A DNA stretch of 64,000 bases from NCBI RefSeq assembly GCF_009914755.1, contig NC_060927.1; one strand, 5' to 3'. The translations under genes were made by a program, and so were the position numbers. The DNA comes from the human T2T-CHM13v2.0 reference genome, Homo sapiens. The notes under the pieces were generated by a model. The model was not told where the DNA came from. It was given only the letters and a program-made list of their open reading frames with translations, and made no database searches. Below are positions 3,221-37,529 of this stretch, piece by piece (the stretch's first letter is position 1; the number at the start of each line of letters is the position of its first letter).

Positions 3221-6202
3221 TCACCGGTAGTGTGGCCCGCAGGGACGCCGACCTGCTGGAGCGTCGTGCCAGCATGGGCTGTGGCAAGCACGTGGGCCAG
3301 CAGGAGGTTCCCGCTGCACAGCTGTGGGGTGAGGATAGACTGGGTGGTGATATCGGCCATTACAGGGGCCTCTTCTGCTGGCAAGAGTGTGACAGTAGCA
3401 AGTAGATGGACAGGCCTGCGTGTGAGGACGGAATGCAGGAGGGGTTCTTGTGCGCCTGGGTGTGGGGCCCTCACGGGAACCGTGGAGAAATGGCCAGGTA
3501 ACTGCGTCATGTGGGCTAGTAGATTGGCCAGGGCTTCGAACTGAAGGACGATAATGGGGAGTAGCTGTCAGGCCCTGGGAGTGCCTGAGTGTAAGTGGAG
3601 ATGGGTTTGGGGTCACTGAGGGATGCGTGGGAGCCATCCCTGTATAGGTACAGGTCATAGGGAGATAGTCTCGTGAGGCCTGTGAGTGTCTAGGGTTGTC
3701 CTGGGTGCCTGGGGCTGACTGTGGCAGAAATCTGGGGAAGGCTGGAGAGAAGCTGGGAGACCCAGGAGAGTCCCTGAAGGCAGGGGGTGAAGAGGTGAAA
3801 GAAATGGGGGAGGGTTGCAGTAAGGTCCGTGAGTTTGTAGGTGATTCCTGGGTGCGGGAAGCTGACTCCAGGTGAAATCTGGAGATGGTTGGAGAGTAGC
3901 TGAGAGAGACAGAAGAGTCCCTGAGGGCTGGGGGTGAGAACATGAGGGAGACGGGGGAGTAAGTCAGTGAAATTCGTGAGTTCGGTGGTGTATCGTGGGT
4001 GCCTGGAACTGACTCCAGCTGGAATCTAGAGAAGTTTTGAGAGTAGCTGAAGGAGACACAAGAGTCCCTGTGGGCTGAGGGCAAAGACCTGAGAGAGACC
4101 AGGGAGGACCTCAGTGAAGTCTGTGAGTCTGTAGGTGATTCCGGAGTGTGGGAGGCTGACTCCTGCTGAAATCTGGGCGTGGTGGGAGAGTAGCTGGGAC
4201 AGACAGGAGAGTCCCAGGGGGCTGGGGGTGAAGACATGAGAGAGACTGGGGAGTAACTCAGTGAAATTGCTGAGTTGGTTGGTGATACCTGGGTGCCTGG
4301 AACTGACCCCCGCTGAAATCTGGGCATGGTTGGAGAGTAGCTGGGACACACAGGAGAGTCCCTGAGGGCTGGGGGTGAAGACATGAGCGAGACCGGGGAG
4401 TAACTGAGTGAAACTGGTGAGTTTGGTGGTGACTCCGGGGTGCCTGGAACTGACTCCAGCTGAAATGTGGGCGTGGTTGGAGAGTAGCTGGGACAGACAG
4501 GAGAGTCCCTGAGGACTGGTGAAGACATGAGAGAGAGTGGAGAGTAATTGAGTGAAATTGGTGAGTTTGGTGGTGATTCCTGGGTGCCTGGAACTGACTC
4601 CCGCTGAAGTGTGGGCGTGGTTGGAGAGTAGCTGGGACAGACAGGCGAGTCCCTGAGGGTTGGAGATAAAGACGTGCTAGAGACTGAGGAGTAACTGAGT
4701 GAAATTGGTGAGTTTGGTGGTGATTCCGGGGTGCCTGGAACGGACTCCAGCTGAAATGTGGGCGTGGTTGGAGAGTAGCTGGGACAGACGGGAGAGTCCC
4801 TGAGGGATGGTGAAGACATGAGAGAGACTGGGGAGTAACGCAGTGAAATTGGTGAGTTTGGTGGTGATTTCTGGGTGTCTGCAACGGACTCCCGCTGAAG
4901 TGTGGGCGTGCTTGGAGAGTAGCTGGGACAGACAGGCGAGTCCCTGAGGGTTGGAGATAAAGACGTGCTGGAGACTGGGGAGTAACTCAGTGAAAGTGGT
5001 GGGCTTGGTGGTGATCCCAGGGTTCCTGGAACTGACCCGCGCTGAAATGTGGGCGTGGTTGGAGAGTAGCTGGGACAGACTGGAGGGTCCGTAAGGGCTG
5101 GGGGTGAAGACGTGAGAGAGACTGTCGAGGATCTCACTGAGGTCTGTGAGTCTGTAGGTGTTTCTGGGGTGTGGGGTACAGACTCCCGCTGAAATCTGGG
5201 CGTAGTTGGAGAGTAGCTGGGACAGACAGGAGAGTCATGGGTGGCTGGGGGTGAGCTGCTGGATGATGGCAGTAAGAACATATGGTACATTATTGATGAA
5301 TGAGGTGACTGTGAAGAATCTCCAGAGGAGGACACGGGAGAACACAATGACATGAGTGACTGTCCTGCTTGGTTAGGAAAGGGAAACGTAAAGTTGTGGA
5401 ATTCTGTTGATGATGGATGTGAGAGTGGTGAAGCCCTGCGGGATGATGTAGAGGACTTCCACATCCCTGGTGAGGAGCTGCCCCTTGGGTCTGAGTTTCT
5501 GGGAGGGGAGAGGGAGAAGCTGGGTGAGGCAGGCATGAATCTTGAGGAGTCAGGGCTGGGGGACCGCTCATATTCTCCCGAGACCTGTGAGTCTCTGGGG
5601 GACTCCTGGGTGCATGGGGCTGGCTCCCGCAGGAACCTGGGGATGGCTGGAGAGTAACTGGGAGCCACAGGAGGGTCCCTGAGGCCTGGGGGTGAAGAGA
5701 TGCAAGACACAGGGGTGGAGCAGCGTGAGGCTCGTGAGTTTGTAGGTGATTCCTGGGTGTGGGGGGCTGACTCCAGCTGAAATCTGGGGTTGTTTGGAGA
5801 GTAGCTGGGAGACACAGGAGACCCCCCGAGAGCTGGGGGTGAGCTGCTGGGTGATGGCAGTAAGAACATGTGGTATATTATTGATGAACGTGGGGACTCT
5901 GAGGAGTCCTCAGAGGAGGACACGGCAGAGCCCAATGGCTTCATTGATTGCCCATCACGGTGAGGACAGGGAAATGGGAGCTTGTGGGATTCTGGTGATG
6001 ACAGAGGTGAGTGTGGTGAAGCCCTAGGGGATGGTGAATGGTAGTTCCGGATCCCTGGTGAGGAGCTTCCCCTTAAGCCTGAGTTTCTGAGAGGGGAGAG
6101 GGAGAAGCTGGGTGAGGCTCGCATGGACCTTGGGGTGTCCGTGCTGGGGGACCGTTCATAAGAAGAGCCAGACAAGACCCTACTGTTCTTAGGTGCAGAC
6201 AT
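3221..6202 (-). CDS. 993-aa Ser/Pro/Thr-rich disordered protein with Pol II CTD-like heptad repeats, copy 1
   Basis: Uninterrupted 2982-bp ORF; ATG has A at -3 (aatcATG); first AUG after the TATA/Inr; diverged 48/49-aa repeats all stay in frame. Confidence 0.7.
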   Translation of the reverse strand: MSAPKNSRVLSGSSYERSPSTDTPRSMRASPSFSLSPLRNSGLRGSSSPGIRNYHSPSPRASPHSPLSSPESHKLPFPCPHRDGQSMKPLGSAVSSSEDSSESPRSSIIYHMFLLPSPSSSPPALGGSPVSPSYSPNNPRFQLESAPHTQESPTNSRASRCSTPVSCISSPPGLRDPPVAPSYSPAIPRFLREPAPCTQESPRDSQVSGEYERSPSPDSSRFMPASPSFSLSPPRNSDPRGSSSPGMWKSSTSSRRASPLSHPSSTEFHNFTFPFPNQAGQSLMSLCSPVSSSGDSSQSPHSSIMYHMFLLPSSSSSPPATHDSPVCPSYSPTTPRFQRESVPHTPETPTDSQTSVRSSTVSLTSSPPALTDPPVCPSYSPTTPTFQRGSVPGTLGSPPSPPLSLSYSPVSSTSLSPTLRDSPVCPSYSPSTPTLQRESVADTQKSPPNSPISLRYSPVSLMSSPSLRDSPVCPSYSPTTPTFQLESVPGTPESPPNSPISLSYSSVSSTSLSPTLRDSPVCPSYSPTTPTLQRESVPGTQESPPNSPISLNYSPLSLMSSPVLRDSPVCPSYSPTTPTFQLESVPGTPESPPNSPVSLSYSPVSLMSSPPALRDSPVCPSYSPTMPRFQRGSVPGTQVSPTNSAISLSYSPVSLMSSPPAPWDSPVCPSYSPTTPRFQQESASHTPESPTDSQTSLRSSLVSLRSLPSAHRDSCVSFSYSQNFSRFQLESVPGTHDTPPNSRISLTYSPVSLMFSPPALRDSSVSLSYSPTISRFHLESASRTQESPTNSRTLLQPSPISFTSSPPAFRDSPGSPSFSPAFPRFLPQSAPGTQDNPRHSQASRDYLPMTCTYTGMAPTHPSVTPNPSPLTLRHSQGLTATPHYRPSVRSPGQSTSPHDAVTWPFLHGSREGPTPRRTRTPPAFRPHTQACPSTCYCHTLASRRGPCNGRYHHPVYPHPTAVQREPPAGPRACHSPCWHDAPAGRRPCGPHYR
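3670..5255 (-). repeat. 147/144-bp tandem array (ACRO1-like), 11 monomers, inside the CDS
   Basis: Anchor Tyr/Phe codon at 5213, 5066, 4919, 4775, 4628, 4484, 4337, 4190, 4043, 3896, 3749 (spacing 147 or 144); two more monomers near 5580-5860. Confidence 0.9.
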
Positions 6203-6263
6203 GATTAGGAAACCTGCAGCTCCCAGGGGCCCCCACTAATGTTCTAACTCGCAGAAGGAAGGA

Positions 6264-9526: not shown

Positions 9527-12508
9527 TCACCGGTAGTGTGGCCCGCAGGGACGCCGACCTGCTGGAGCGTCGTGCCAGCATGGGCTGTGGCAAGCACGTG
9601 GGCCAGCAGGAGGTTCCCGCTGCACAGCTGTGGGGTGAGGATAGACTGGGTGGTGATATCGGCCATTACAGGGGCCTCTTCTGCTGGCAAGAGTGTGACA
9701 GTAGCAAGTAGATGGACAGGCCTGCGTGTGAGGACGGAATGCAGGAGGGGTTCTTGTGCGCCTGGGTGTGGGGCCCTCACGGGAACCGTGGAGAAATGGC
9801 CAGGTAACTGCGTCATGTGGGCTAGTAGATTGGCCAGGGCTTCGAACTGAAGGACGATAATGGGGAGTAGCTGTCAGGCCCTGGGAGTGCCTGAGTGTAA
9901 GTGGAGATGGGTTTGGGGTCACTGAGGGATGTGTGGGAGCCATCCCTGTATAGGTACAGGTCATAGGGAGATAGTCTCGTGAGGCCTGTGAGTGTCTAGG
10001 GTTGTCCTGGGTGCCTGGGGCTGACTGTGGCAGAAATCTGGGGAAGGCTGGAGAGAAGCTGGGAGACCCAGGAGAGTCCCTGAAGGCAGGGGGTGAAGAG
10101 GTGAAAGAAATGGGGGAGGGTTGCAGTAAGGTCCGTGAGTTTGTAGGTGATTCCTGGGTGCGGGAAGCTGACTCCAGGTGAAATCTGGAGATGGTTGGAG
10201 AGTAGCTGAGAGAGACAGAAGAGTCCCTGAGGGCTGGGGGTGAGAACATGAGGGAGACGGGGGAGTAAGTCAGTGAAATTCGTGAGTTCGGTGGTGTATC
10301 GTGGGTGCCTGGAACTGACTCCAGCTGGAATCTAGAGAAGTTTTGAGAGTAGCTGAAGGAGACACAAGAGTCCCTGTGGGCTGAGGGCAAAGACCTGAGA
10401 GAGACCAGGGAGGACCTCAGTGAAGTCTGTGAGTCTGTAGGTGATTCCGGAGTGTGGGAGGCTGACTCCCGCTGAAATCTGGGCGTGGTGGGAGAGTAGC
10501 TGGGACAGACAGGAGAGTCCCAGGGGGCTGGGGGTGAAGACATGAGAGAGACTGGGGAGTAACTCAGTGAAATTGCTGAGTTGGTTGGTGATACCTGGGT
10601 GCCTGGAACTGACCCCCGCTGAAATCTGGGCATGGTTGGAGAGTAGCTGGGACACACAGGAGAGTCCCTGAGGGCTGGGGGTGAAGACATGAGCGAGACC
10701 GGGGAGTAACTGAGTGAAACTGGTGAGTTTGGTGGTGACTCCGGGGTGCCTGGAACTGACTCCAGCTGAAATGTGGGCGTGGTTGGAGAGTAGCTGGGAC
10801 AGACAGGAGAGTCCCTGAGGACTGGTGAAGACATGAGAGAGAGTGGAGAGTAATTGAGTGAAATTGGTGAGTTTGGTGGTGATTCCTGGGTGCCTGGAAC
10901 TGACTCCCGCTGAAGTGTGGGCGTGGTTGGAGAGTAGCTGGGACACACAGGAGAGTCCCTGAGGGTTGGAGATAAAGACGTGCTAGAGACTGAGGAGTAA
11001 CTGAGTGAAATTGGTGAGTTTGGTGGTGATTCCGGGGTGCCTGGAACGGACTCCAGCTGAAATGTGGGCGTGGTTGGAGAGTAGCTGGGACAGACGGGAG
11101 AGTCCCTGAGGGATGGTGAAGACATGAGAGAGACTGGGGAGTAACGCAGTGAAATTGGTGAGTTTGGTGGTGATTTCTGGGTGTCTGCAACGGACTCCCG
11201 CTGAAGTGTGGGCGTGCTTGGAGAGTAGCTGGGACAGACAGGCGAGTCCCTGAGGGTTGGAGATAAAGACGTGCTGGAGACTGGGGAGTAACTCAGTGAA
11301 AGTGGTGGGCTTGGTGGTGATCCCAGGGTTCCTGGAACTGACCCGCGCTGAAATGTGGGCGTGGTTGGAGAGTAGCTGGGACAGACTGGAGGGTCCGTAA
11401 GGGCTGGGGGTGAAGACGTGAGAGAGACTGGCGAGGATCTCACTGAGGTCTGTGAGTTTGTAGGTGTTTCTGGGGTGTGGGGTACAGACTCCCGCTGAAA
11501 TCTGGGCGTAGTTGGAGAGTAGCTGGGACAGACAGGAGAGTCATGGGTGGCTGGGGGTGAGCTGCTGGATGATGGCAGTAAGAACATATGGTACATTATT
11601 GATGAATGAGGTGACTGTGAAGAATCTCCAGAGGAGGACACGGGAGAACACAATGACATGAGTGACTGTCCTGCTTGGTTAGGAAAGGGAAACGTAAAGT
11701 TGTGGAATTCTGTTGATGATGGATGTGAGAGTGGTGAAGCCCTGCGGGATGATGTAGAGGACTTCCACATCCCTGGTGAGGAGCTGCCCCTTGGGTCTGA
11801 GTTTCTGGGAGGGGAGAGGGAGAAGCTGGGTGAGGCAGGCATGAATCTTGAGGAGTCAGGGCTGGGGGACCGCTCATATTCTCCCGAGACCTGTGAGTCT
11901 CTGGGGGACTCCTGGGTGCATGGGGCTGACTCCCGCAGGAACCTGGGGATGGCTGGAGAGTAACTGGGAGCCACAGGAGGGTCCCTGAGGCCTGGGGGTG
12001 AAGAGATGCAAGACACAGGGGTGGAGCAGCGTGAGGCTCGTGAGTTTGTAGGTGATTCCTGGGTGTGGGGGGCTGACTCCAGCTGAAATCTGGGGTTGTT
12101 TGGAGAGTAGCTGGGAGACACAGGAGACCCCCCGAGAGCTGGGGGTGAGCTGCTGGGTGATGGCAGTAAGAACATGTGGTATATTATTGATGAACGTGGG
12201 GACTCTGAGGAGTCCTCAGAGGAGGACACGGCAGAGCCCAATGGCTTCATTGATTGCCCATCACGGTGAGGACAGGGAAATGGGAGCTTGTGGGATTCTG
12301 GTGATGACAGAGGTGAGTGTGGTGAAGCCCTAGGGGATGGTGAATGGTAGTTCCGGATCCCTGGTGAGGAGCTTCCCCTTAAGCCTGAGTTTCTGAGAGG
12401 GGAGAGGGAGAAGCTGGGTGAGGCTCGCATGGACCTTGGGGTGTCCGTGCTGGGGGACCGTTCATAAGAAGAGCCAGACAAGACCCTACTGTTCTTAGGT
12501 GCAGACAT
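9527..12508 (-). CDS. 993-aa CTD-like repeat protein, copy 2
   Basis: Intact ORF, near-identical to copy 1. Confidence 0.7.
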   Translation of the reverse strand: MSAPKNSRVLSGSSYERSPSTDTPRSMRASPSFSLSPLRNSGLRGSSSPGIRNYHSPSPRASPHSPLSSPESHKLPFPCPHRDGQSMKPLGSAVSSSEDSSESPRSSIIYHMFLLPSPSSSPPALGGSPVSPSYSPNNPRFQLESAPHTQESPTNSRASRCSTPVSCISSPPGLRDPPVAPSYSPAIPRFLRESAPCTQESPRDSQVSGEYERSPSPDSSRFMPASPSFSLSPPRNSDPRGSSSPGMWKSSTSSRRASPLSHPSSTEFHNFTFPFPNQAGQSLMSLCSPVSSSGDSSQSPHSSIMYHMFLLPSSSSSPPATHDSPVCPSYSPTTPRFQRESVPHTPETPTNSQTSVRSSPVSLTSSPPALTDPPVCPSYSPTTPTFQRGSVPGTLGSPPSPPLSLSYSPVSSTSLSPTLRDSPVCPSYSPSTPTLQRESVADTQKSPPNSPISLRYSPVSLMSSPSLRDSPVCPSYSPTTPTFQLESVPGTPESPPNSPISLSYSSVSSTSLSPTLRDSPVCPSYSPTTPTLQRESVPGTQESPPNSPISLNYSPLSLMSSPVLRDSPVCPSYSPTTPTFQLESVPGTPESPPNSPVSLSYSPVSLMSSPPALRDSPVCPSYSPTMPRFQRGSVPGTQVSPTNSAISLSYSPVSLMSSPPAPWDSPVCPSYSPTTPRFQRESASHTPESPTDSQTSLRSSLVSLRSLPSAHRDSCVSFSYSQNFSRFQLESVPGTHDTPPNSRISLTYSPVSLMFSPPALRDSSVSLSYSPTISRFHLESASRTQESPTNSRTLLQPSPISFTSSPPAFRDSPGSPSFSPAFPRFLPQSAPGTQDNPRHSQASRDYLPMTCTYTGMAPTHPSVTPNPSPLTLRHSQGLTATPHYRPSVRSPGQSTSPHDAVTWPFLHGSREGPTPRRTRTPPAFRPHTQACPSTCYCHTLASRRGPCNGRYHHPVYPHPTAVQREPPAGPRACHSPCWHDAPAGRRPCGPHYR
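9976..11561 (-). repeat. ACRO1-like 147/144-bp array, 11 monomers
   Basis: As unit 1. Confidence 0.9.
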
Positions 12509-12823
12509 GATTAGGAAACCTGCAGCTCCCAGGGGCCCCCACTAATGTTCTAACTCGCAGAAGGAAGGAGTGTGTGTGCGTGTGTGAGTGTGCGTGTGTG
12601 TGTGTGTGTGTGTGTTTGCGTGTGTGCGGTGTGAGGTATGGGCCCCTTAAGGAAATGGAAATCAACCAACCAATGGGACAGACAGACAGACAGACAGACA
12701 GAGATTCACTTGCCCAAGTGTTCTGTCCTGTCCTCTGAATCCGCTTCCAAGTCGCAAGACGCTGTGAGCTCCAAGTCCACGCAGAGTCCGCCAAACGCTG
12801 CGGCCGCTGATCCGCTCCGCGAA

Positions 12824-15832: not shown

Positions 15833-18814
15833 TCACCGGTAGTGTGGCCCGCAGGGACGCCGACCTGCTGGAGCGTCGTGCCAGCATGGGCTGTGGCAAG
15901 CACGTGGGCCAGCAGGAGGTTCCCGCTGCACAGCTGTGGGGTGAGGATAGACTGGGTGGTGATATCGGCCATTACAGGGGCCTCTTCTGCTGGCAAGAGT
16001 GTGACAGTAGCAAGTAGATGGACAGGCCTGCGTGTGAGGACGGAATGCAGGAGGGGTTCTTGTGCGCCTGGGTGTGGGGCCCTCACGGGAACCGTGGAGA
16101 AATGGCCAGGTAACTGCGTCATGTGGGCTAGTAGATTGGCCAGGGCTTCGAACTGAAGGACGATAATGGGGAGTAGCTGTCAGGCCCTGGGAGTGCCTGA
16201 GTGTAAGTGGAGATGGGTTTGGGGTCACTGAGGGATGCGTGGGAGCCATCCCTGTATAGGTACAGGTCATAGGGAGATAGTCTCGTGAGGCCTGTGAGTG
16301 TCTAGGGTTGTCCTGGGTGCCTGGGGCTGACTGTGGCAGAAATCTGGGGAAGGCTGGAGAGAAGCTGGGAGACCCAGGAGAGTCCCTGAAGGCAGGGGGT
16401 GAAGAGGTGAAAGAAATGGGGGAGGGTTGCAGTAAGGTCCGTGAGTTTGTAGGTGATTCCTGGGTGCGGGAAGCTGACTCCAGGTGAAATCTGGAGATGG
16501 TTGGAGAGTAGCTGAGAGAGACAGAAGAGTCCCTGAGGGCTGGGGGTGAGAACATGAGGGAGACGGGGGAGTAAGTCAGTGAAATTCGTGAGTTCGGTGG
16601 TGTATCGTGGGTGCCTGGAACTGACTCCAGCTGGAATCTAGAGAAGTTTTGAGAGTAGCTGAAGGAGACACAAGAGTCCCTGTGGGCTGAGGGCAAAGAC
16701 CTGAGAGAGACCAGGGAGGACCTCAGTGAAGTCTGTGAGTCTGTAGGTGATTCCGGAGTGTGGGAGGCTGACTCCTGCTGAAATCTGGGCGTGGTGGGAG
16801 AGTAGCTGGGACAGACAGGAGAGTCCCAGGGGGCTGGGGGTGAAGACATGAGAGAGACTGGGGAGTAACTCAGTGAAATTGCTGAGTTGGTTGGTGATAC
16901 CTGGGTGCCTGGAACTGACCCCCGCTGAAATCTGGGCATGGTTGGAGAGTAGCTGGGACACACAGGAGAGTCCCTGAGGGCTGGGGGTGAAGACATGAGC
17001 GAGACCGGGGAGTAACTGAGTGAAACTGGTGAGTTTGGTGGTGACTCCGGGGTGCCTGGAACTGACTCCAGCTGAAATGTGGGCGTGGTTGGAGAGTAGC
17101 TGGGACAGACAGGAGAGTCCCTGAGGACTGGTGAAGACATGAGAGAGAGTGGAGAGTAATTGAGTGAAATTGGTGAGTTTGGTGGTGATTCCTGGGTGCC
17201 TGGAACTGACTCCCGCTGAAGTGTGGGCGTGGTTGGAGAGTAGCTGGGACACACAGGAGAGTCCCTGAGGGTTGGAGATAAAGACGTGCTAGAGACTGAG
17301 GAGTAACTGAGTGAAATTGGTGAGTTTGGTGGTGATTCCGGGGTGCCTGGAACGGACTCCAGCTGAAATGTGGGCGTGGTTGGAGAGTAGCTGGGACAGA
17401 CGGGAGAGTCCCTGAGGGATGGTGAAGACATGAGAGAGACTGGGGAGTAACGCAGTGAAATTGGTGAGTTTGGTGGTGATTTCTGGGTGTCTGCAACGGA
17501 CTCCCGCTGAAGTGTGGGCGTGCTTGGAGAGTAGCTGGGACAGACAGGCGAGTCCCTGAGGGTTGGAGATAAAGACGTGCTGGAGACTGGGGAGTAACTC
17601 AGTGAAAGTGGTGGGCTTGGTGGTGATCCCAGGGTTCCTGGAACTGACCCGCGCTGAAATGTGGGCGTGGTTGGAGAGTAGCTGGGACAGACTGGAGGGT
17701 CCGTAAGGGCTGGGGGTGAAGACGTGAGAGAGACTGGCGAGGATCTCACTGAGGTCTGTGAGTTTGTAGGTGTTTCTGGGGTGTGGGGTACAGACTCCCG
17801 CTGAAATCTGGGCGTAGTTGGAGAGTAGCTGGGACAGACAGGAGAGTCATGGGTGGCTGGGGGTGAGCTGCTGGATGATGGCAGTAAGAACATATGGTAC
17901 ATTATTGATGAATGAGGTGACTGTGAAGAATCTCCAGAGGAGGACACGGGAGAACACAATGACATGAGTGACTGTCCTGCTTGGTTAGGAAAGGGAAACG
18001 TAAAGTTGTGGAATTCTGTTGATGATGGATGTGAGAGTGGTGAAGCCCTGCGGGATGATGTAGAGGACTTCCACATCCCTGGTGAGGAGCTGCCCCTTGG
18101 GTCTGAGTTTCTGGGAGGGGAGAGGGAGAAGCTGGGTGAGGCAGGCATGAATCTTGAGGAGTCAGGGCTGGGGGACCGCTCATATTCTCCCGAGACCTGT
18201 GAGTCTCTGGGGGACTCCTGGGTGCATGGGGCTGACTCCCGCAGGAACCTGGGGATGGCTGGAGAGTAACTGGGAGCCACAGGAGGGTCCCTGAGGCCTG
18301 GGGGTGAAGAGATGCAAGACACAGGGGTGGAGCAGCGTGAGGCTCGTGAGTTTGTAGGTGATTCCTGGGTGTGGGGGGCTGACTCCAGCTGAAATCTGGG
18401 GTTGTTTGGAGAGTAGCTGGGAGACACAGGAGACCCCCCGAGAGCTGGGGGTGAGCTGCTGGGTGATGGCAGTAAGAACATGTGGTATATTATTGATGAA
18501 CGTGGGGACTCTGAGGAGTCCTCAGAGGAGGACACGGCAGAGCCAAATGGCTTCATTGATTGCCCATCACGGTGAGGACAGGGAAATGGGAGCTTGTGGG
18601 ATTCTGGTGATGACAGAGGTGAGTGTGGTGAAGCCCTAGGGGATGGTGAATGGTAGTTCCGGATCCCTGGTGAGGAGCTTCCCCTTAAGCCTGAGTTTCT
18701 GAGAGGGGAGAGGGAGAAGCTGGGTGAGGCTCGCATGGACCTTGGGGTGTCCGTGCTGGGGGACCGTTCATAAGAAGAGCCAGACAAGACCCTACTGTTC
18801 TTAGGTGCAGACAT
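15833..18814 (-). CDS. 993-aa CTD-like repeat protein, copy 3
   Basis: Intact ORF; L90F variant. Confidence 0.7.
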   Translation of the reverse strand: MSAPKNSRVLSGSSYERSPSTDTPRSMRASPSFSLSPLRNSGLRGSSSPGIRNYHSPSPRASPHSPLSSPESHKLPFPCPHRDGQSMKPFGSAVSSSEDSSESPRSSIIYHMFLLPSPSSSPPALGGSPVSPSYSPNNPRFQLESAPHTQESPTNSRASRCSTPVSCISSPPGLRDPPVAPSYSPAIPRFLRESAPCTQESPRDSQVSGEYERSPSPDSSRFMPASPSFSLSPPRNSDPRGSSSPGMWKSSTSSRRASPLSHPSSTEFHNFTFPFPNQAGQSLMSLCSPVSSSGDSSQSPHSSIMYHMFLLPSSSSSPPATHDSPVCPSYSPTTPRFQRESVPHTPETPTNSQTSVRSSPVSLTSSPPALTDPPVCPSYSPTTPTFQRGSVPGTLGSPPSPPLSLSYSPVSSTSLSPTLRDSPVCPSYSPSTPTLQRESVADTQKSPPNSPISLRYSPVSLMSSPSLRDSPVCPSYSPTTPTFQLESVPGTPESPPNSPISLSYSSVSSTSLSPTLRDSPVCPSYSPTTPTLQRESVPGTQESPPNSPISLNYSPLSLMSSPVLRDSPVCPSYSPTTPTFQLESVPGTPESPPNSPVSLSYSPVSLMSSPPALRDSPVCPSYSPTMPRFQRGSVPGTQVSPTNSAISLSYSPVSLMSSPPAPWDSPVCPSYSPTTPRFQQESASHTPESPTDSQTSLRSSLVSLRSLPSAHRDSCVSFSYSQNFSRFQLESVPGTHDTPPNSRISLTYSPVSLMFSPPALRDSSVSLSYSPTISRFHLESASRTQESPTNSRTLLQPSPISFTSSPPAFRDSPGSPSFSPAFPRFLPQSAPGTQDNPRHSQASRDYLPMTCTYTGMAPTHPSVTPNPSPLTLRHSQGLTATPHYRPSVRSPGQSTSPHDAVTWPFLHGSREGPTPRRTRTPPAFRPHTQACPSTCYCHTLASRRGPCNGRYHHPVYPHPTAVQREPPAGPRACHSPCWHDAPAGRRPCGPHYR
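16282..17867 (-). repeat. ACRO1-like 147/144-bp array, 11 monomers
   Basis: As unit 1. Confidence 0.9.
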
Positions 18815-22138: not shown

Positions 22139-24976
22139 TCACCGGTAGTGTGGCCCGCAGGGACGCCGACCTGCTGGAGCGTCGTGCCAGCATGGGCTGT
22201 GGCAAGCACGTGGGCCAGCAGGAGGTTCCCGCTGCACAGCTGTGGGGTGAGGATAGACTGGGTGGTGATATCGGCCATTACAGGGGCCTCTTCTGCTGGC
22301 AAGAGTGTGACAGTAGCAAGTAGATGGACAGGCCTGCGTGTGAGGACGGAATGCAGGAGGGGTTCTTGTGCGGCTGGGTGTGGGGCCCTCACGGGAACCG
22401 TGGAGAAATGGCCAGGTAACTGCGTCATGTGGGCTAGTAGATTGGCCAGGGCTTCGAACTGAAGGACGATAATGGGGAGTAGCTGTCAGGCCCTGGGAGT
22501 GCCTGAGTGTAAGTGGAGATGGGTTTGGGGTCACTGAGGGATGTGTGGGAGCCATCCCTGTATAGGTACAGGTCATAGGGAGATAGTCTCGTGAGGCCTG
22601 TGAGTGTCTAGGGTTGTCCTGGGTGCCTGGGGCTGACTGTGGCAGAAATCTGGGGAAGGCTGGAGAGAAGCTGGGAGACCCAGGAGAGTCCCTGAAGGCA
22701 GGGGGTGAAGAGGTGAAAGAAATGGGGGAGGGTTGCAGTAAGGTCCGTGAGTTTGTAGGTGATTCCTGGGTGCGGGAAGCTGACTCCAGGTGAAATCTGG
22801 AGATGGTTGGAGAGTAGCTGAGAGAGACAGAAGAGTCCCTGAGGGCTGGGGGTGAGAACATGAGGGAGACGGGGGAGTAAGTCAGTGAAATTCGTGAGTT
22901 CGGTGGTGTATCGTGGGTGCCTGGAACTGACTCCAGCTGGAATCTAGAGAAGTTTTGAGAGTAGCTGAAGGAGACACAAGAGTCCCTGTGGGCTGAGGGC
23001 AAAGACCTGAGAGAGACCAGGGAGGACCTCAGTGAAGTCTGTGAGTCTGTAGGTGATTCCGGAGTGTGGGAGGCTGACTCCCGCTGAAATCTGGGCGTGG
23101 TGGGAGAGTAGCTGGGACAGACAGGAGAGTCCCAGGGGGCTGGGGGTGAAGACATGAGAGAGACTGGGGAGTAACTCAGTGAAATTGCTGAGTTGGTTGG
23201 TGATACCTGGGTGCCTGGAACTGACCCCCGCTGAAATCTGGGCATGGTTGGAGAGTAGCTGGGACACACAGGAGAGTCCCTGAGGGCTGGGGGTGAAGAC
23301 ATGAGCGAGACCGGGGAGTAACTGAGTGAAACTGGTGAGTTTGGTGGTGACTCCGGGGTGCCTGGAACTGACTCCAGCTGAAGTGTGGGCGTGGTTGGAG
23401 AGTAGCTGGGACACACAGGAGAGTCCCTGAGGGTTGGAGATAAAGACGTGCTAGAGACTGAGGAGTAACTGAGTGAAATTGGTGAGTTTGGTGGTGATTC
23501 CGGGGTGCCTGGAACGGACTCCAGCTGAAATGTGGGCGTGGTTGGAGAGTAGCTGGGACAGACGGGAGAGTCCCTGAGGGATGGTGAAGACATGAGAGAG
23601 ACTGGGGAGTAACGCAGTGAAATTGGTGAGTTTGGTGGTGATTTCTGGGTGTCTGCAACGGACTCCCGCTGAAGTGTGGGCGTGCTTGGAGAGTAGCTGG
23701 GACAGACAGGCGAGTCCCTGAGGGTTGGAGATAAAGACGTGCTGGAGACTGGGGAGTAACTCAGTGAAAGTGGTGGGCTTGGTGGTGATCCCAGGGTTCC
23801 TGGAACTGACCCGCGCTGAAATGTGGGCGTGGTTGGAGAGTAGCTGGGACAGACTGGAGGGTCCGTAAGGGCTGGGGGTGAAGACGTGAGAGAGACTGGC
23901 GAGGATCTCACTGAGGTCTGTGAGTTTGTAGGTGTTTCTGGGGTGTGGGGTACAGACTCCCGCTGAAATCTGGGCGTAGTTGGAGAGTAGCTGGGACAGA
24001 CAGGAGAGTCATGGGTGGCTGGGGGTGAGCTGCTGGATGATGGCAGTAAGAACATATGGTACATTATTGATGAATGAGGTGACTGTGAAGAATCTCCAGA
24101 GGAGGACACGGGAGAACACAATGACATGAGTGACTGTCCTGCTTGGTTAGGAAAGGGAAACGTAAAGTTGTGGAATTCTGTTGATGATGGATGTGAGAGT
24201 GGTGAAGCCCTGCGGGATGATGTAGAGGACTTCCACATCCCTGGTGAGGAGCTGCCCCTTGGGTCTGAGTTTCTGGGAGGGGAGAGGGAGAAGCTGGGTG
24301 AGGCAGGCATGAATCTTGAGGAGTCAGGGCTGGGGGACCGCTCATATTCTCCCGAGACCTGTGAGTCTCTGGGGGACTCCTGGGTGCATGGGGCTGACTC
24401 CCGCAGGAACCTGGGGATGGCTGGAGAGTAACTGGGAGCCACAGGAGGGTCCCTGAGGCCTGGGGGTGAAGAGATGCAAGACACAGGGGTGGAGCAGCGT
24501 GAGGCTCGTGAGTTTGTAGGTGATTCCTGGGTGTGGGGGGCTGACTCCAGCTGAAATCTGGGGTTGTTTGGAGAGTAGCTGGGAGACACAGGAGACCCCC
24601 CGAGAGCTGGGGGTGAGCTGCTGGGTGATGGCAGTAAGAACATGTGGTATATTATTGATGAACGTGGGGACTCTGAGGAGTCCTCAGAGGAGGACACGGC
24701 AGAGCCAAATGGCTTCATTGATTGCCCATCACGGTGAGGACAGGGAAATGGGAGCTTGTGGGATTCTGGTGATGACAGAGGTGAGTGTGGTGAAGCCCTA
24801 GGGGATGGTGAATGGTAGTTCCGGATCCCTGGTGAGGAGCTTCCCCTTAAGCCTGAGTTTCTGAGAGGGGAGAGGGAGAAGCTGGGTGAGGCTCGCATGG
24901 ACCTTGGGGTGTCCGTGCTGGGGGACCGTTCATAAGAAGAGCCAGACAAGACCCTACTGTTCTTAGGTGCAGACAT
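22139..24976 (-). CDS. 945-aa CTD-like repeat protein, copy 4 (one repeat deleted in frame)
   Basis: Intact ORF lacking one 144-bp monomer. Confidence 0.7.
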   Translation of the reverse strand: MSAPKNSRVLSGSSYERSPSTDTPRSMRASPSFSLSPLRNSGLRGSSSPGIRNYHSPSPRASPHSPLSSPESHKLPFPCPHRDGQSMKPFGSAVSSSEDSSESPRSSIIYHMFLLPSPSSSPPALGGSPVSPSYSPNNPRFQLESAPHTQESPTNSRASRCSTPVSCISSPPGLRDPPVAPSYSPAIPRFLRESAPCTQESPRDSQVSGEYERSPSPDSSRFMPASPSFSLSPPRNSDPRGSSSPGMWKSSTSSRRASPLSHPSSTEFHNFTFPFPNQAGQSLMSLCSPVSSSGDSSQSPHSSIMYHMFLLPSSSSSPPATHDSPVCPSYSPTTPRFQRESVPHTPETPTNSQTSVRSSPVSLTSSPPALTDPPVCPSYSPTTPTFQRGSVPGTLGSPPSPPLSLSYSPVSSTSLSPTLRDSPVCPSYSPSTPTLQRESVADTQKSPPNSPISLRYSPVSLMSSPSLRDSPVCPSYSPTTPTFQLESVPGTPESPPNSPISLSYSSVSSTSLSPTLRDSPVCPSYSPTTPTLQLESVPGTPESPPNSPVSLSYSPVSLMSSPPALRDSPVCPSYSPTMPRFQRGSVPGTQVSPTNSAISLSYSPVSLMSSPPAPWDSPVCPSYSPTTPRFQRESASHTPESPTDSQTSLRSSLVSLRSLPSAHRDSCVSFSYSQNFSRFQLESVPGTHDTPPNSRISLTYSPVSLMFSPPALRDSSVSLSYSPTISRFHLESASRTQESPTNSRTLLQPSPISFTSSPPAFRDSPGSPSFSPAFPRFLPQSAPGTQDNPRHSQASRDYLPMTCTYTGMAPTHPSVTPNPSPLTLRHSQGLTATPHYRPSVRSPGQSTSPHDAVTWPFLHGSREGPTPSRTRTPPAFRPHTQACPSTCYCHTLASRRGPCNGRYHHPVYPHPTAVQREPPAGPRACHSPCWHDAPAGRRPCGPHYR
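22588..24029 (-). repeat. ACRO1-like array, 10 monomers
   Basis: As unit 1 minus one monomer. Confidence 0.9.
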
Positions 24977-25291
24977 GATTAGGAAACCTGCAGCTCCCAG
25001 GGGCCCCCACTAATGTTCTAACTCGCAGAAGGAAGGAGTGTGTGTGCGTGTGTGAGTGTGCGTGTGTGTGTGTGTGTGTGTGTTTGTGTGTGTGCGGTGT
25101 GAGGTATGGGCCCCTTAAGGAAATGGAAATCAACCAACCAATGGGACAGACAGACAGACAGACAGACAGAGATTCACTTGCCCAAGTGTTCTGTCCTGTC
25201 CTCTGAATCCGCTTCCAAGTCGCAAGACGCTGTGAGCTCCAAGTCCACGCAGAGTCCGCCAAACGCTGCGGCCGCTGATCCGCTCCGCGAA

Positions 25292-37454: not shown

Positions 37455-37529
37455 GATTAGGAAACCTGCAGCTCCCAGGGGCCCCCACTAATGTTCTAAC
37501 TCGCAGAAGGAAGGAGTGTGTGTGCGTGT

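What the first reader, a model, noticed from the sequence alone, without database searches (positions are those of the whole stretch)
3670..5255. The 147-bp ACRO1-like monomer is exactly 7 x 21 bp: seven degenerate CTD heptads
Seen: the 49-aa repeat parses as DSPVCPS/YSPTTPT/FQLESVP/GTPESPP/NSPVSLS/YSPVSLM/SSPPALR. Against Y1S2P3T4S5P6S7: S/T-P at positions 2-3 in 6 of 7 heptads, S/T at 5 in 5 of 7, Y/F at 1 in 3 of 7. Ser7 codons are AGY (CCC AGC TAC TCT CCA ACC; CTC AGT TAC TCC CCA GTC TCT) while Ser2 and Ser5 are TCN, and position-7 variants include R (AGA) and T (ACA). From recall, POLR2A has the same codon split and similar position-7 variants. Monomer length changes only by one codon (144 vs 147) despite clear divergence between monomers. 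Inference: the satellite arose from a POLR2A CTD fragment (retrocopy or duplication), or by strong convergence, and was then amplified as a 7-heptad block under frame constraint.
Basis: partly seen in the sequence, partly recalled or inferred. Interest (0 to 1): 0.88.

Follow-up and report, generated by a model that had tools for sequence, protein, structure and literature searches.

The report
ACRO1 satellite reads as CTD-like heptads
This is the known human ACRO1 satellite, whose 147-base unit really is seven decayed 21-base sub-repeats that read like the tail of RNA polymerase II; the resemblance was published in 2020 and its origin is still unsettled.

Summary
The window carries 10 copies of a ~6.3-kb ACRO/ACRE macrosatellite unit. 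Each has an ACRO1 array; the first has 11 monomers, 9 of 147 bp and 2 of 144 bp. The consensus monomer has 21-bp periodicity (0 of 5000 shuffles reach it). On the minus strand it reads as seven degenerate Y-S-P-T-S-P-S heptads, 23 of 49 residues identical to the human CTD. The serine codon split matches POLR2A. Nucleotide similarity to the POLR2A CTD exon is register- and orientation-specific and exceeds two control minisatellites.

The resemblance and the idea of descent from CTD mRNA are already in print (Boots et al. 2020, PMC7714431).

Origin from POLR2A stays unproven:
- no homology outside the heptads;
- no identifiable seven-heptad source block;
- nhmmer is marginal (E 0.027);
- unrelated 21/42-bp minisatellites give stronger protein-level CTD hits.

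"Frame constraint" is weakly supported. The heptad frame is part of a ~1004-codon open frame kept in 39 of 42 full-length copies scored genome-wide. Stop-creating variants are somewhat depleted. But dN/dS is about 1, and an older chr19 array has stops and a frameshift.

Verdict: real, largely known; moderate interest.

The parts
3627..5236 (-). Main ACRO1 array of the first unit: 11 monomers (9 x 147 bp, 2 x 144 bp), each seven 21-bp sub-repeats
   Evidence: TRF; monomer alignment; nhmmer with the monomer HMM, E 3e-30 to 4e-45
4361..4507 (-).
5573..5821 (-). Small second ACRO1 array (about 1.7 monomers); corresponds to the '256 bp' array described for ACRE units
   Evidence: nhmmer; PMC7714431 section 7
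5237..5572 (-). Spacer inside the open frame. It is 3-periodic in base composition and keeps residual 21-bp and 147-bp periodicity. It is part of a 588-bp (4 x 147) internal duplication
5822..6235 (-). N-terminal flank of the open frame: no in-frame stop, 3-periodic composition, residual 21-bp periodicity
3224..3626 (-). C-terminal flank of the open frame: no in-frame stop, 3-periodic composition
3221..6235 (-). Stop-to-stop open frame of 1004 codons (first Met at residue 12) in the CTD-like frame, spanning both arrays and their flanks
9530..12541 (-). Same open frame in the second unit. All 10 units in the window keep it (956-1004 codons): 3224, 9530, 15836, 22142, 28308, 34620, 40782, 47088, 53392, 59691
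10005..11560 (-). ACRO1 array of unit 2. Further arrays at 16311-17866, 22617-24028, 28783-30320, 35095-36506, 41257-42812, 47563-49118, 53867-55422, 60166-61703
   Evidence: TRF

Best explanation
This is the known ACRO1 satellite inside the ~6.3-kb ACRO/ACRE composite macrosatellite, here the pericentromeric chromosome 3 array.

Its 147-bp monomer is a higher-order unit of seven strongly diverged 21-bp sub-repeats. It was later amplified in 147-, 291- and 438-bp registers and then as the whole 6.3-kb unit.

On the pyrimidine-rich (minus) strand the sub-repeats read as degenerate Y-S-P-x-S-P/L-S heptads. The likeness to the POLR2A CTD exists at nucleotide level, not only in amino-acid composition.

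I lean, only slightly, to descent from a stretch of CTD-coding sequence (gene or mRNA) that decayed before the 147-bp block was amplified. This step is inferred.

Today the sequence behaves as non-coding DNA with no selection on the encoded residues. The ~1000-codon open frame is then mostly a legacy of the stop-poor periodic sequence and the youth of the copies.

The function shown by others, not tested here, is at RNA level: the C/U-rich ACRO1 transcript binds Pol II and blocks elongation in cis.
For: Identity as ACRO1/ACRE:
- 147-bp monomers in a 6306-bp unit with a 1.6-kb array and a 249-bp array.
- Near-identical units on chromosomes 3, 13, 14, 15, 21 and 22.
- My consensus reproduces the published 23 of 49 identity to the CTD (PMC7714431 section 7).

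Seven 21-bp sub-repeats: 0 of 5000 shuffles reach the observed periodicity.

Nucleotide-level likeness to the POLR2A CTD exon:
- 82 of 147 identical in register 0; 0 of 3000 column-permuted nulls reach the score, z 5.3.
- 5 of 7 sub-repeats are 13-16 of 21 identical to the CTD majority 21-mer.
- All 48 blastn HSPs with E<0.04 lie in the CTD exon (best E 7e-22), against best E 0.04 on the reversed locus.
- The longest shared word is 16 nt, against 8-11 nt in four controls.
- Identity to the CTD 21-mer is 0.558, against 0.441 and 0.486 for the two control minisatellites.

Coding-like ancestry:
- Column conservation among the seven sub-repeats is 0.245 at third codon positions against 0.510 elsewhere. 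The one-sided p is 0.0024 in the CTD frame and 0.98 and 0.82 in the other two frames.
- The Ser codon-family split is the same as in POLR2A.

Neutral evolution today:
- 30 copies, 242 distinct variants: 68 synonymous against 67.3+/-6.6 expected.
- chr14 copy: 72 differences spread 24/24/24 over codon positions.
- chr19 paralogue, 7.3% diverged: 67 synonymous against 64.6 expected.

RNA function: PMC7714431 abstract and sections 7 and 12.
Against: Against descent from POLR2A:
- No similarity to any non-heptad part of the 40-kb POLR2A locus (linker, acidic tail, 3'UTR), and no poly(A) relic.
- No seven-heptad block stands out: 280 placements, mean 73.8, maximum 84 of 147.
- Sub-repeats 3 and 4 are only 4 and 7 of 21 identical to the CTD majority. 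They do not map to the irregular first CTD heptads.
- nhmmer best E is 0.027.
- A 21-bp minisatellite on chr7 and a 42-bp one on chr16 give stronger protein-level CTD hits (E 3e-36 and 5e-39) than ACRO arrays (E 6e-23), so CTD-like translations do arise elsewhere.
- My rough estimate is that a random C-rich 21-mer matches the CTD this well in about 1% of cases. This is an inference, not a call.
- The sub-repeats are so diverged (about 45% pairwise identity) that a primate-only history is hard to fit (inference).
- A DNA search of the genome with the CTD exon found no retrocopy intermediate: 5 matches, none ACRO.

Against 'purely non-coding':
- The 384 non-array codons of the frame have 0 stops, against 7 and 13 in the other two frames. 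P(0) is 0.00045 under a Markov null and 0.007 under a 3-periodic Markov null.
- Stop-creating variants are depleted among the 30 copies: 3 against 8.4-9.0 expected, P 0.02-0.03.
Confidence: 0.45

Rival explanations
1. Independent origin. ACRO1 grew from a pyrimidine-rich 21-bp minisatellite unrelated to POLR2A. One frame happens to read S-P-rich heptads, and the CTD likeness is chance plus composition, noticed after the fact.
For: - Two unrelated minisatellites, chr7 (21 bp x 127 copies) and chr16 (42 bp x 48 copies), translate into CTD-like periodic peptides and score higher against the CTD protein than ACRO arrays do.
- No flank homology and no source block.
- nhmmer E is 0.027.
- Pfam PF05001 does not hit the translated frame at E<=10.
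- Two of seven sub-repeats are unlike the CTD.
- Evolution among copies is neutral.
Against: - At nucleotide level ACRO1 is closer to the CTD 21-mer (0.558) than both control minisatellites (0.441, 0.486).
- 0 of 3000 periodicity-preserving permutations reach its score.
- The shared word is 16 nt against 8-11 nt in controls.
- Position 7 is AGN in 4 of 7 sub-repeats, as in POLR2A.
- Third-position columns are the least conserved only in the CTD frame (p 0.0024), which a never-coding repeat does not predict.
Confidence: 0.35
2. The ~1000-codon frame is, or recently was, a real gene. Each ACRO unit would encode an intronless, disordered, CTD-mimicking Ser/Pro-rich protein, selected for staying open and for composition rather than for exact residues.
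For: - The frame is open in 10 of 10 window copies.
- It is open in 39 of 42 full-length matches scored on chromosomes 3, 13, 14, 15, 21 and 22 (only 46 of 2556 candidates were scored).
- Non-array flanks are stop-free in the same frame (P 0.00045 to 0.007).
- Stop-creating variants number 3 against 8.4-9.0 expected (P 0.02-0.03).
- Indels inside the frame are 3 bp in 3 of 3 cases against the chr19 paralogue. Among the 30 copies there is one 3-bp and one 1-bp event.
- An old internal duplicate gives dN/dS 0.67 in this frame, against 1.14 and 0.88 in the others (not significant).
Against: - dN/dS is about 1 in all three copy comparisons.
- Stops do occur in 3 of 42 full-length copies, and one copy has a 1-bp deletion.
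- The chr19 paralogue has 2 stops. Frame 2 shows the same apparent stop depletion there: 2 against 6.5 expected.
- The older chr19 array has stops in 2 of 8 monomers and one 148-bp spacing, yet still keeps ~147-bp spacing. Few indels are therefore a property of the sequence, not of a frame.
- No gene is annotated in the window (hub annotation).
- No CpG island is present, and the only nearby poly(A) signal is ATTAAA, 229 nt downstream.
- Boots et al. detected no stable ACRO1 transcripts in HeLa cells.
- The frame was picked because it is open, so part of the stop evidence is circular.
Confidence: 0.13
3. The 3-kb periodic block descends from a coding heptad repeat of some gene other than POLR2A, or from a transposon-borne repeat, and only converged on CTD-like residues.
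For: - Coding-like 3-periodicity covers the whole 3-kb block, including the flanks (p 0.008, 0.0002, 0.0001). It is absent from 8 of 8 control windows in the rest of the unit.
- The flanks have no POLR2A counterpart.
Against: - Pfam finds no family for the 1004-residue translation: 2 hits, both E>1.
- In PDB, 14 of 15 hits at E<=10 are RPB1 or CTD peptides.
- The genome search with the frame returned only ACRO copies among the 46 candidates scored.
- No alternative parent was found.
Confidence: 0.07

Closest known systems
ACRO1 satellite in the ACRO / 'ACRE' 6-kb composite macrosatellite (Warburton et al. 2008, PMC2588610; Boots et al. 2020, PMC7714431; ape-acrocentric preprint 2025, PMC12767296)
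   Same: 147-bp monomer. ~6.3-kb unit with one long and one ~250-bp ACRO1 block. Location on chromosome 3 and the acrocentric short arms. 23 of 49 residues identical to the CTD when translated.
   Different: Nothing essential; this is a member. Not in the passages I read: the 21-bp periodicity statistics, the codon-level comparison, and the ~1000-codon frame spanning the arrays and flanks.
C-terminal domain of RNA polymerase II largest subunit (POLR2A, single CTD exon at chr17:7417042-7418238 of this assembly)
   Same: Heptad period and S-P at positions 2-3 and 5-6. Tyr at position 1 in two sub-repeats. TCN for Ser2 and Ser5, and AGY/AGN at position 7. 56% nucleotide identity in register.
   Different: Only 23 of 49 residues are identical, and two sub-repeats are unrelated. 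No flanking POLR2A sequence. The Pfam CTD repeat model gives no hit. The setting is a satellite and evolution is neutral.
D4Z4 macrosatellite carrying the DUX4 retrogene (comparison from general knowledge, not tested here)
   Same: A kilobase-scale tandem unit on heterochromatic chromosome ends with an intronless open frame in each copy. RNA is reported in cleavage-stage embryos (ACRO1: PMC6545021).
   Different: DUX4 has recognisable homeodomains and is conserved as a protein. The ACRO frame has no domain, dN/dS about 1 and no protein evidence.
Ordinary 21-bp and 42-bp minisatellites whose translation mimics the CTD (chr7:107946121-107948788 and chr16:95731308-95733326 of this assembly)
   Same: Period a multiple of 21 bp, a pyrimidine-rich strand, long stop-free frames, and strong HMMER hits to the CTD protein.
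   Different: Near-identical short units with no 147-bp higher order. No Tyr-Ser-Pro core. Lower nucleotide identity to the CTD 21-mer (0.44 and 0.49 against 0.56).

Membership tests
ACRO1 satellite / ACRO (ACRE) composite repeat | 147-bp monomers in tandem | tested here: met
   TRF period 147 in 10 arrays; 11 monomers of 147 or 144 bp
ACRO1 satellite / ACRO (ACRE) composite repeat | Arrays of 1.3-2.4 kb and ~256 bp embedded in a ~6-kb tandem unit | tested here: met
   Unit spacing 6306 bp; 1.6-kb array at 3627-5236 and 249-bp array at 5573-5821; description in PMC7714431 section 7
ACRO1 satellite / ACRO (ACRE) composite repeat | Found on chromosome 3, chromosome 4 and the acrocentric short arms | tested here: met
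   Window is chr3 (hub annotation). 95-100% identical frames on chromosomes 3, 13, 14, 15, 21 and 22. Copies on chr4 and chr19. FISH reported in PMC2588610
ACRO1 satellite / ACRO (ACRE) composite repeat | Alignment to the Dfam/Repbase ACRO1 consensus; L1PA10, MER21B and L1MB8 fragments in the rest of the unit | not testable with these tools
   No Dfam or RepeatMasker is available. Indirect support only: the translated consensus reproduces the published 23 of 49 identity
RNA polymerase II CTD heptad repeat (Pfam PF05001) | Match to the Pfam repeat model above its cut-off | tested here: not met
   No PF05001 hit at E<=10 for the 1004-residue translation. Caveat: the same model also failed to ring on POLR2A itself and on all control genomes in the genome search, so the model is insensitive
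RNA polymerase II CTD heptad repeat (Pfam PF05001) | Tandem heptads close to Y-S-P-T-S-P-S | tested here: inconclusive
   23 of 49 residues identical; 0 of 2000 residue shuffles reach this. [ST]P falls only at phases 2 and 5. But 2 of 7 heptads are unlike the CTD
Processed retrocopy or segmental copy of POLR2A | Homology continuing into non-repeat POLR2A sequence (linker, acidic tail, 3'UTR), or a poly(A) relic | tested here: not met
   Sensitive blastn of the 6.4-kb unit against 40 kb of the POLR2A locus: all 48 HSPs with E<0.04 lie inside the heptad part of the CTD exon
Processed retrocopy or segmental copy of POLR2A | Co-linear match to a particular run of heptads | tested here: not met
   280 placements give 57-84 of 147 identities with no outlier. 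Sub-repeats 3-4 do not map to the irregular first heptads
Protein-coding macrosatellite (D4Z4/DUX4-like) | Open frame kept across copies | tested here: met
   10 of 10 window copies; 39 of 42 full-length matches without a stop
Protein-coding macrosatellite (D4Z4/DUX4-like) | Purifying selection on the protein (dN/dS < 1) | tested here: not met
   Synonymous counts equal the neutral expectation: 68 against 67.3, 17 against 20.2, 67 against 64.6
Protein-coding macrosatellite (D4Z4/DUX4-like) | Transcript and protein evidence | not testable with these tools
   No gene is annotated in the window (hub). RNA at the 4-cell stage is reported at family level (PMC6545021). No translation data were available here

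The most novel reading that the evidence does not exclude
Each ACRO unit carries a ~1000-codon intronless gene. It would be translated when ACRO1 RNA peaks at the 4-cell stage, from hundreds of copies next to the nucleolar organisers. The product would be a disordered Ser/Pro-rich mimic of the Pol II CTD, for example a decoy for CTD kinases, phosphatases or condensates. Selection would act on openness and heptad composition rather than on exact residues. That would explain dN/dS of about 1 together with depleted stop-creating variants and stop-free flanks.
Probability: 0.12. Interest if true: 0.85.

Novelty: already known. Interest (0 to 1): 0.4.

Why it matters
ACRO is, after rDNA, the repeat most tightly tied to ape acrocentric short arms (PMC12767296, passages). 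Its RNA is reported to bind Pol II and stall it. If the satellite descends from the CTD-coding exon, it would be a rare case of a housekeeping-gene fragment seeding a chromosome-scale satellite. It would also give a concrete basis for the published RNA-CTD binding idea.

- a codon-level and periodicity-controlled test of the resemblance;
- the demonstration that ordinary minisatellites can mimic the CTD at protein level, so published E-values overstate the case;
- the observation of a ~1000-codon frame kept in most copies but evolving neutrally.

The practical value is a set of sharply defined tests rather than a new class of element.

Tried and rejected
- **Pfam PF05001.** No hit on the translated frame. 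A genome search with the family rang nowhere, not even on POLR2A, so it is uninformative.
- **Irregular first CTD heptads as source of sub-repeats 3-4.** I guessed these two odd sub-repeats descend from the irregular first heptads. Rejected: the best ungapped match is 21 of 42 and lies elsewhere in the exon.
- **A specific seven-heptad source block.** No outlier among 280 placements.
- **Retrocopy hallmarks.** None found. A genome DNA search with the CTD exon plus part of the 3'UTR gave 5 matches, none ACRO and none a retrocopy.
- **PDB phmmer E-values (best 4.9e-10) as evidence of homology.** Rejected as inflated, because bias scores are large and unrelated minisatellites score better in the genome search.
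- **Correlation of column conservation between ACRO1 and POLR2A** (rho 0.55). It is equally high at every shift that is a multiple of 3, so it reflects only 3-periodicity, not register.
- **Stop depletion among monomer variants** (1 against 5.4). Discounted as circular, since the frame was chosen for being open.
- **Promoter, CpG island or strong poly(A) signal around the frame.** Nothing convincing.
- It timed out and was rerun vectorised.

No protein-database, structure or complex jobs were run; a disordered low-complexity human sequence would gain little from them.


Full report
**What is there**

The window holds ten tandem copies of a unit about 6306 bp long. Each has a 147-bp-period array and (AGGA)n, (GT)n and (GACA)n microsatellites. 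In the first unit, a monomer HMM places 11 monomers at 3627-5236 on the minus strand and a second, 249-bp block at 5573-5821. Nine monomers are 147 bp and two are 144 bp. The two short ones share one 3-bp deletion and alternate with 147-mers, which is the 291-bp period TRF also reports. The length change is therefore one event, not repeated evidence of a frame.

This anatomy matches the published description of ACRO1 within 6-kb 'ACRE' units, with arrays of 1.3-2.4 kb and 256 bp and a FISH signal on chromosome 3 (PMC7714431 section 7; PMC2588610 passages). A 2025 preprint describes the unit as ACRO1 plus L1PA10, MER21B and L1MB8, primate-specific and concentrated on acrocentric short arms (PMC12767296 passages). 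I could not align to Dfam.

**The observation**

The consensus monomer has circular self-identity of 0.449, 0.401 and 0.415 at lags 21, 42 and 63, against about 0.28. These are the three highest lags. 0 of 5000 dinucleotide shuffles and 0 of 5000 codon shuffles reach them. [ST]P dipeptides fall only at heptad phases 2 and 5.

POLR2A was located in the window's own genome with a short degenerate heptad pattern. There were 25 forward hits, all at chr17:7417171-7418126, with 0 reverse hits and 0 and 1 control hits. The CTD is one exon with 49 regular heptads.
- In POLR2A, Ser7 is AGY in 22 of 26 cases, Ser2 is TCN in 35 of 41, and Ser5 is TCN in 35 of 48.
- In ACRO1, Ser is TCN in 48 of 48 cases at position 2, TCN in 43 of 43 at position 5, and AGY in 15 of 17 at position 7.
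- These ACRO1 copies are not independent. The consensus has AGC, AGT, AGA and AGG at position 7 in four of its seven sub-repeats.

Two details in the finding need correction. One quoted codon string is not exact. POLR2A's only Arg at position 7 is CGA.

**Prior art**

Boots et al. 2020 reached ACRO1 independently, through a genomic SELEX for Pol II-binding RNAs. They state that the translated consensus is identical to the CTD at 23 of 49 residues and reflects the heptad repeat. [quoted passage not shown] My consensus gives the same 23 of 49; 0 of 2000 residue shuffles reach it, with a mean of 14.0.

A search for ACRO1 together with CTD returned 3 papers, and only this one deals with the matter. 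A search for ACRO1 with 'open reading frame' returned 10 papers (8 listed). I saw listings plus passages of three, and found no description of a long frame in ACRO units.

**Is the likeness more than Ser/Pro composition?**

At nucleotide level the consensus matches the POLR2A majority 21-mer at 82 of 147 positions in one register on one strand. The next best register gives 61 and the median is 39. 0 of 3000 nulls that permute the 21 columns identically in all seven sub-repeats, keeping periodicity and composition, reach the score (z 5.3). Of 5040 codon orders, 35 reach it, about what rotations and swaps of the two Ser and two Pro codons allow.

A permissive blastn of the 6.4-kb unit against 40 kb around POLR2A puts all 48 HSPs with E<0.04 inside the CTD exon. 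They have 55-71% identity over up to about 1100 bp, with best E 7e-22. Against the same locus reversed, the best E is 0.04.

The five best hits are all in the CTD exon, but the best E is 0.027, against 1.3 for the reversed locus. The longest shared word is 16 nt, against 8-11 nt in four controls.

**A caution on significance**

Searching the whole genome in six frames with the CTD protein gives stronger hits at two other loci than at any ACRO array. These are a 42-bp minisatellite on chr16 (E 5e-39) and a 21-bp minisatellite on chr7 (E 3e-36); ACRO arrays start at E 6e-23. Periodicity alone therefore inflates such E-values, including the PDB result where 14 of 15 hits were RPB1 or CTD peptides. 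CTD-like translations of pyrimidine-rich 21-bp repeats arise without POLR2A.

At nucleotide level, however, those controls are further from the CTD 21-mer (0.441 and 0.486) than ACRO1 (0.558). The CTD against itself scores 0.759.

**Descent or convergence?**

For descent:
- Among the seven sub-repeats, third codon positions are the least conserved columns: 0.245 against 0.510, one-sided p 0.0024. The other two frames give 0.98 and 0.82. This is what a copy of a coding heptad array would look like, and POLR2A shows the same pattern.
- Position 7 shares AGN with POLR2A.

Against descent:
- There is no homology to any non-heptad POLR2A sequence.
- No particular seven-heptad block stands out: 280 placements, 57-84 identities.
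- Sub-repeats 3 and 4 are at 4 and 7 of 21 identities and do not map to the irregular first heptads.
- The human genome holds no retrocopy intermediate.
- The sub-repeats are so diverged that a purely primate history is awkward (inference).

I put descent from CTD-coding sequence at about 0.45 and independent origin at about 0.35.

**The open frame**

The heptad frame belongs to a stop-to-stop frame of 1004 codons (3221-6235, minus strand) spanning both arrays and three non-array stretches. It is open in 10 of 10 window units at 956-1004 codons; two units lack one monomer. It is open in 39 of 42 full-length matches on chromosomes 3, 13, 14, 15, 21 and 22, though only 46 of 2556 candidates were scored.

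The 384 non-array codons have 0 stops, against 7 and 13 in the other two frames. P(0) is 0.00045 under a first-order Markov null and 0.007 under a stricter 3-periodic null fitted to those same codons. These flanks are 3-periodic in composition (p 0.008, 0.0002, 0.0001), against 8 of 8 control windows with p>=0.23. Two of the three keep residual 21-bp periodicity. They are therefore probably very old ACRO1-like sequence. A 588-bp (4 x 147) internal duplicate, 80.6% identical over 366 nt without indels, fits this.

**Is the frame under selection?**

Amino-acid selection is absent:
- The chr14 copy has 72 differences spread 24/24/24 over codon positions, with 17 synonymous against 20.2 expected.
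- 242 distinct variants in 30 copies give 68 synonymous against 67.3+/-6.6 expected. A 12-class mutation spectrum gives 65.1 expected.
- The chr19 paralogue, 7.3% diverged, has 67 synonymous against 64.6 expected.

Stop-creating variants are somewhat rare:
- Among the 30 copies there are 3 against 9.0 or 8.4 expected (P 0.02-0.03). One of the three lies at codon 1, before the first Met.
- The chr19 paralogue has 2 against 6.8 expected, but frame 2 shows 2 against 6.5 there.

Indels inside the frame are 3 bp in 3 of 3 cases against chr19. Among the 30 copies there is one 3-bp and one 1-bp event.

An older array beside the chr19 copy, about 70% identical, has stops in 2 of 8 monomers. Its spacings are 148, 147, 147, 147, 147 and 144 bp, so rarity of indels does not need a reading frame. 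No CpG island or strong signals flank the frame, and no gene is annotated (hub annotation).

I read the frame as mostly a legacy of stop-poor periodic sequence in young, homogenised copies. The depletion of stops and the stop-free flanks remain partly unexplained.

**How it works**

By publication, not by my tests: the C/U-rich ACRO1 transcript is a Pol II-binding aptamer that blocks elongation in cis (PMC7714431 abstract and passages). ACRO1 RNA peaks at the 4-cell stage (PMC6545021 passages).

**Verdict**

The central claim is already known. The additions here are the codon-level controls, the minisatellite counter-examples and the neutral but persistently open ~1000-codon frame.

I did not see the supplementary figures of Boots et al. 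on ACRE structure and primate conservation, which may bear on the origin.

Noticed in passing
L044:1121-3788 (chr7:107946121-107948788 of the assembly): A 21-bp minisatellite of 127 copies is open for 900+ codons in all three frames of one strand. One frame reads IPTSASL-type heptads that hit the CTD protein at E 3e-36, better than any ACRO array.
   Followed up: partly
L043:808-2826 (chr16:95731308-95733326): A 42-bp minisatellite of 48 copies at 97% identity, near the end of chr16. Its translation (a 14-residue Ser/Pro/Thr-rich period) gives the best non-self CTD hit in the genome, E 5e-39.
   Followed up: partly
L049 (chr19:47277001-47287000): An isolated ACRO paralogue of just over one unit, 88-91% identical to the chr3 unit. 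Next to it lies an older array of about 8 monomers, about 70% identical, with stops and one 148-bp spacing. It is a useful outgroup for dating ACRO.
   Followed up: partly
window 5237-6160 (minus strand): A 588-bp (exactly 4 x 147) internal duplication upstream of the main array. It is 366 nt at 80.6% identity with no indel. The 'spacer' is therefore itself old periodic sequence.
   Followed up: yes
window 22142-25009 and 34620-37487: Two of the ten units lack one monomer (frame of 956 instead of 1004 codons; TRF gives 9.6 instead of 10.6 copies). The pattern recurs with a spacing of two units, which hints at a higher-order structure of the 6.3-kb units.
   Followed up: no
chr22:3.86-4.12 Mb, chr15:0.09-0.15 and 1.9-2.06 Mb, chr21:0.1-0.21 Mb (table): ACRO copies on the acrocentric arms have open frames of many lengths (805 to 1579 codons). 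Monomer number therefore varies while the frame stays open.
   Followed up: no
chr2:127510279-127510493 (L048), chr11:64829664-64829732, chr6:74529151-74529243, chr1:236979647-236979794: These are the only non-self DNA matches to the POLR2A CTD exon plus part of its 3'UTR (69-81% identity over 69-217 nt). The chr1 match is to the 3'UTR part. Their nature was not examined beyond seeing a Pro/Ser-rich repeat at the chr2 locus.
   Followed up: no
L045 (chr11:65826497-65827588): A leucine/serine-rich 7-residue-period frame (LSFSPLN-type) of 364 codons also hits the CTD protein, E 1e-17. It is another periodic look-alike.
   Followed up: no
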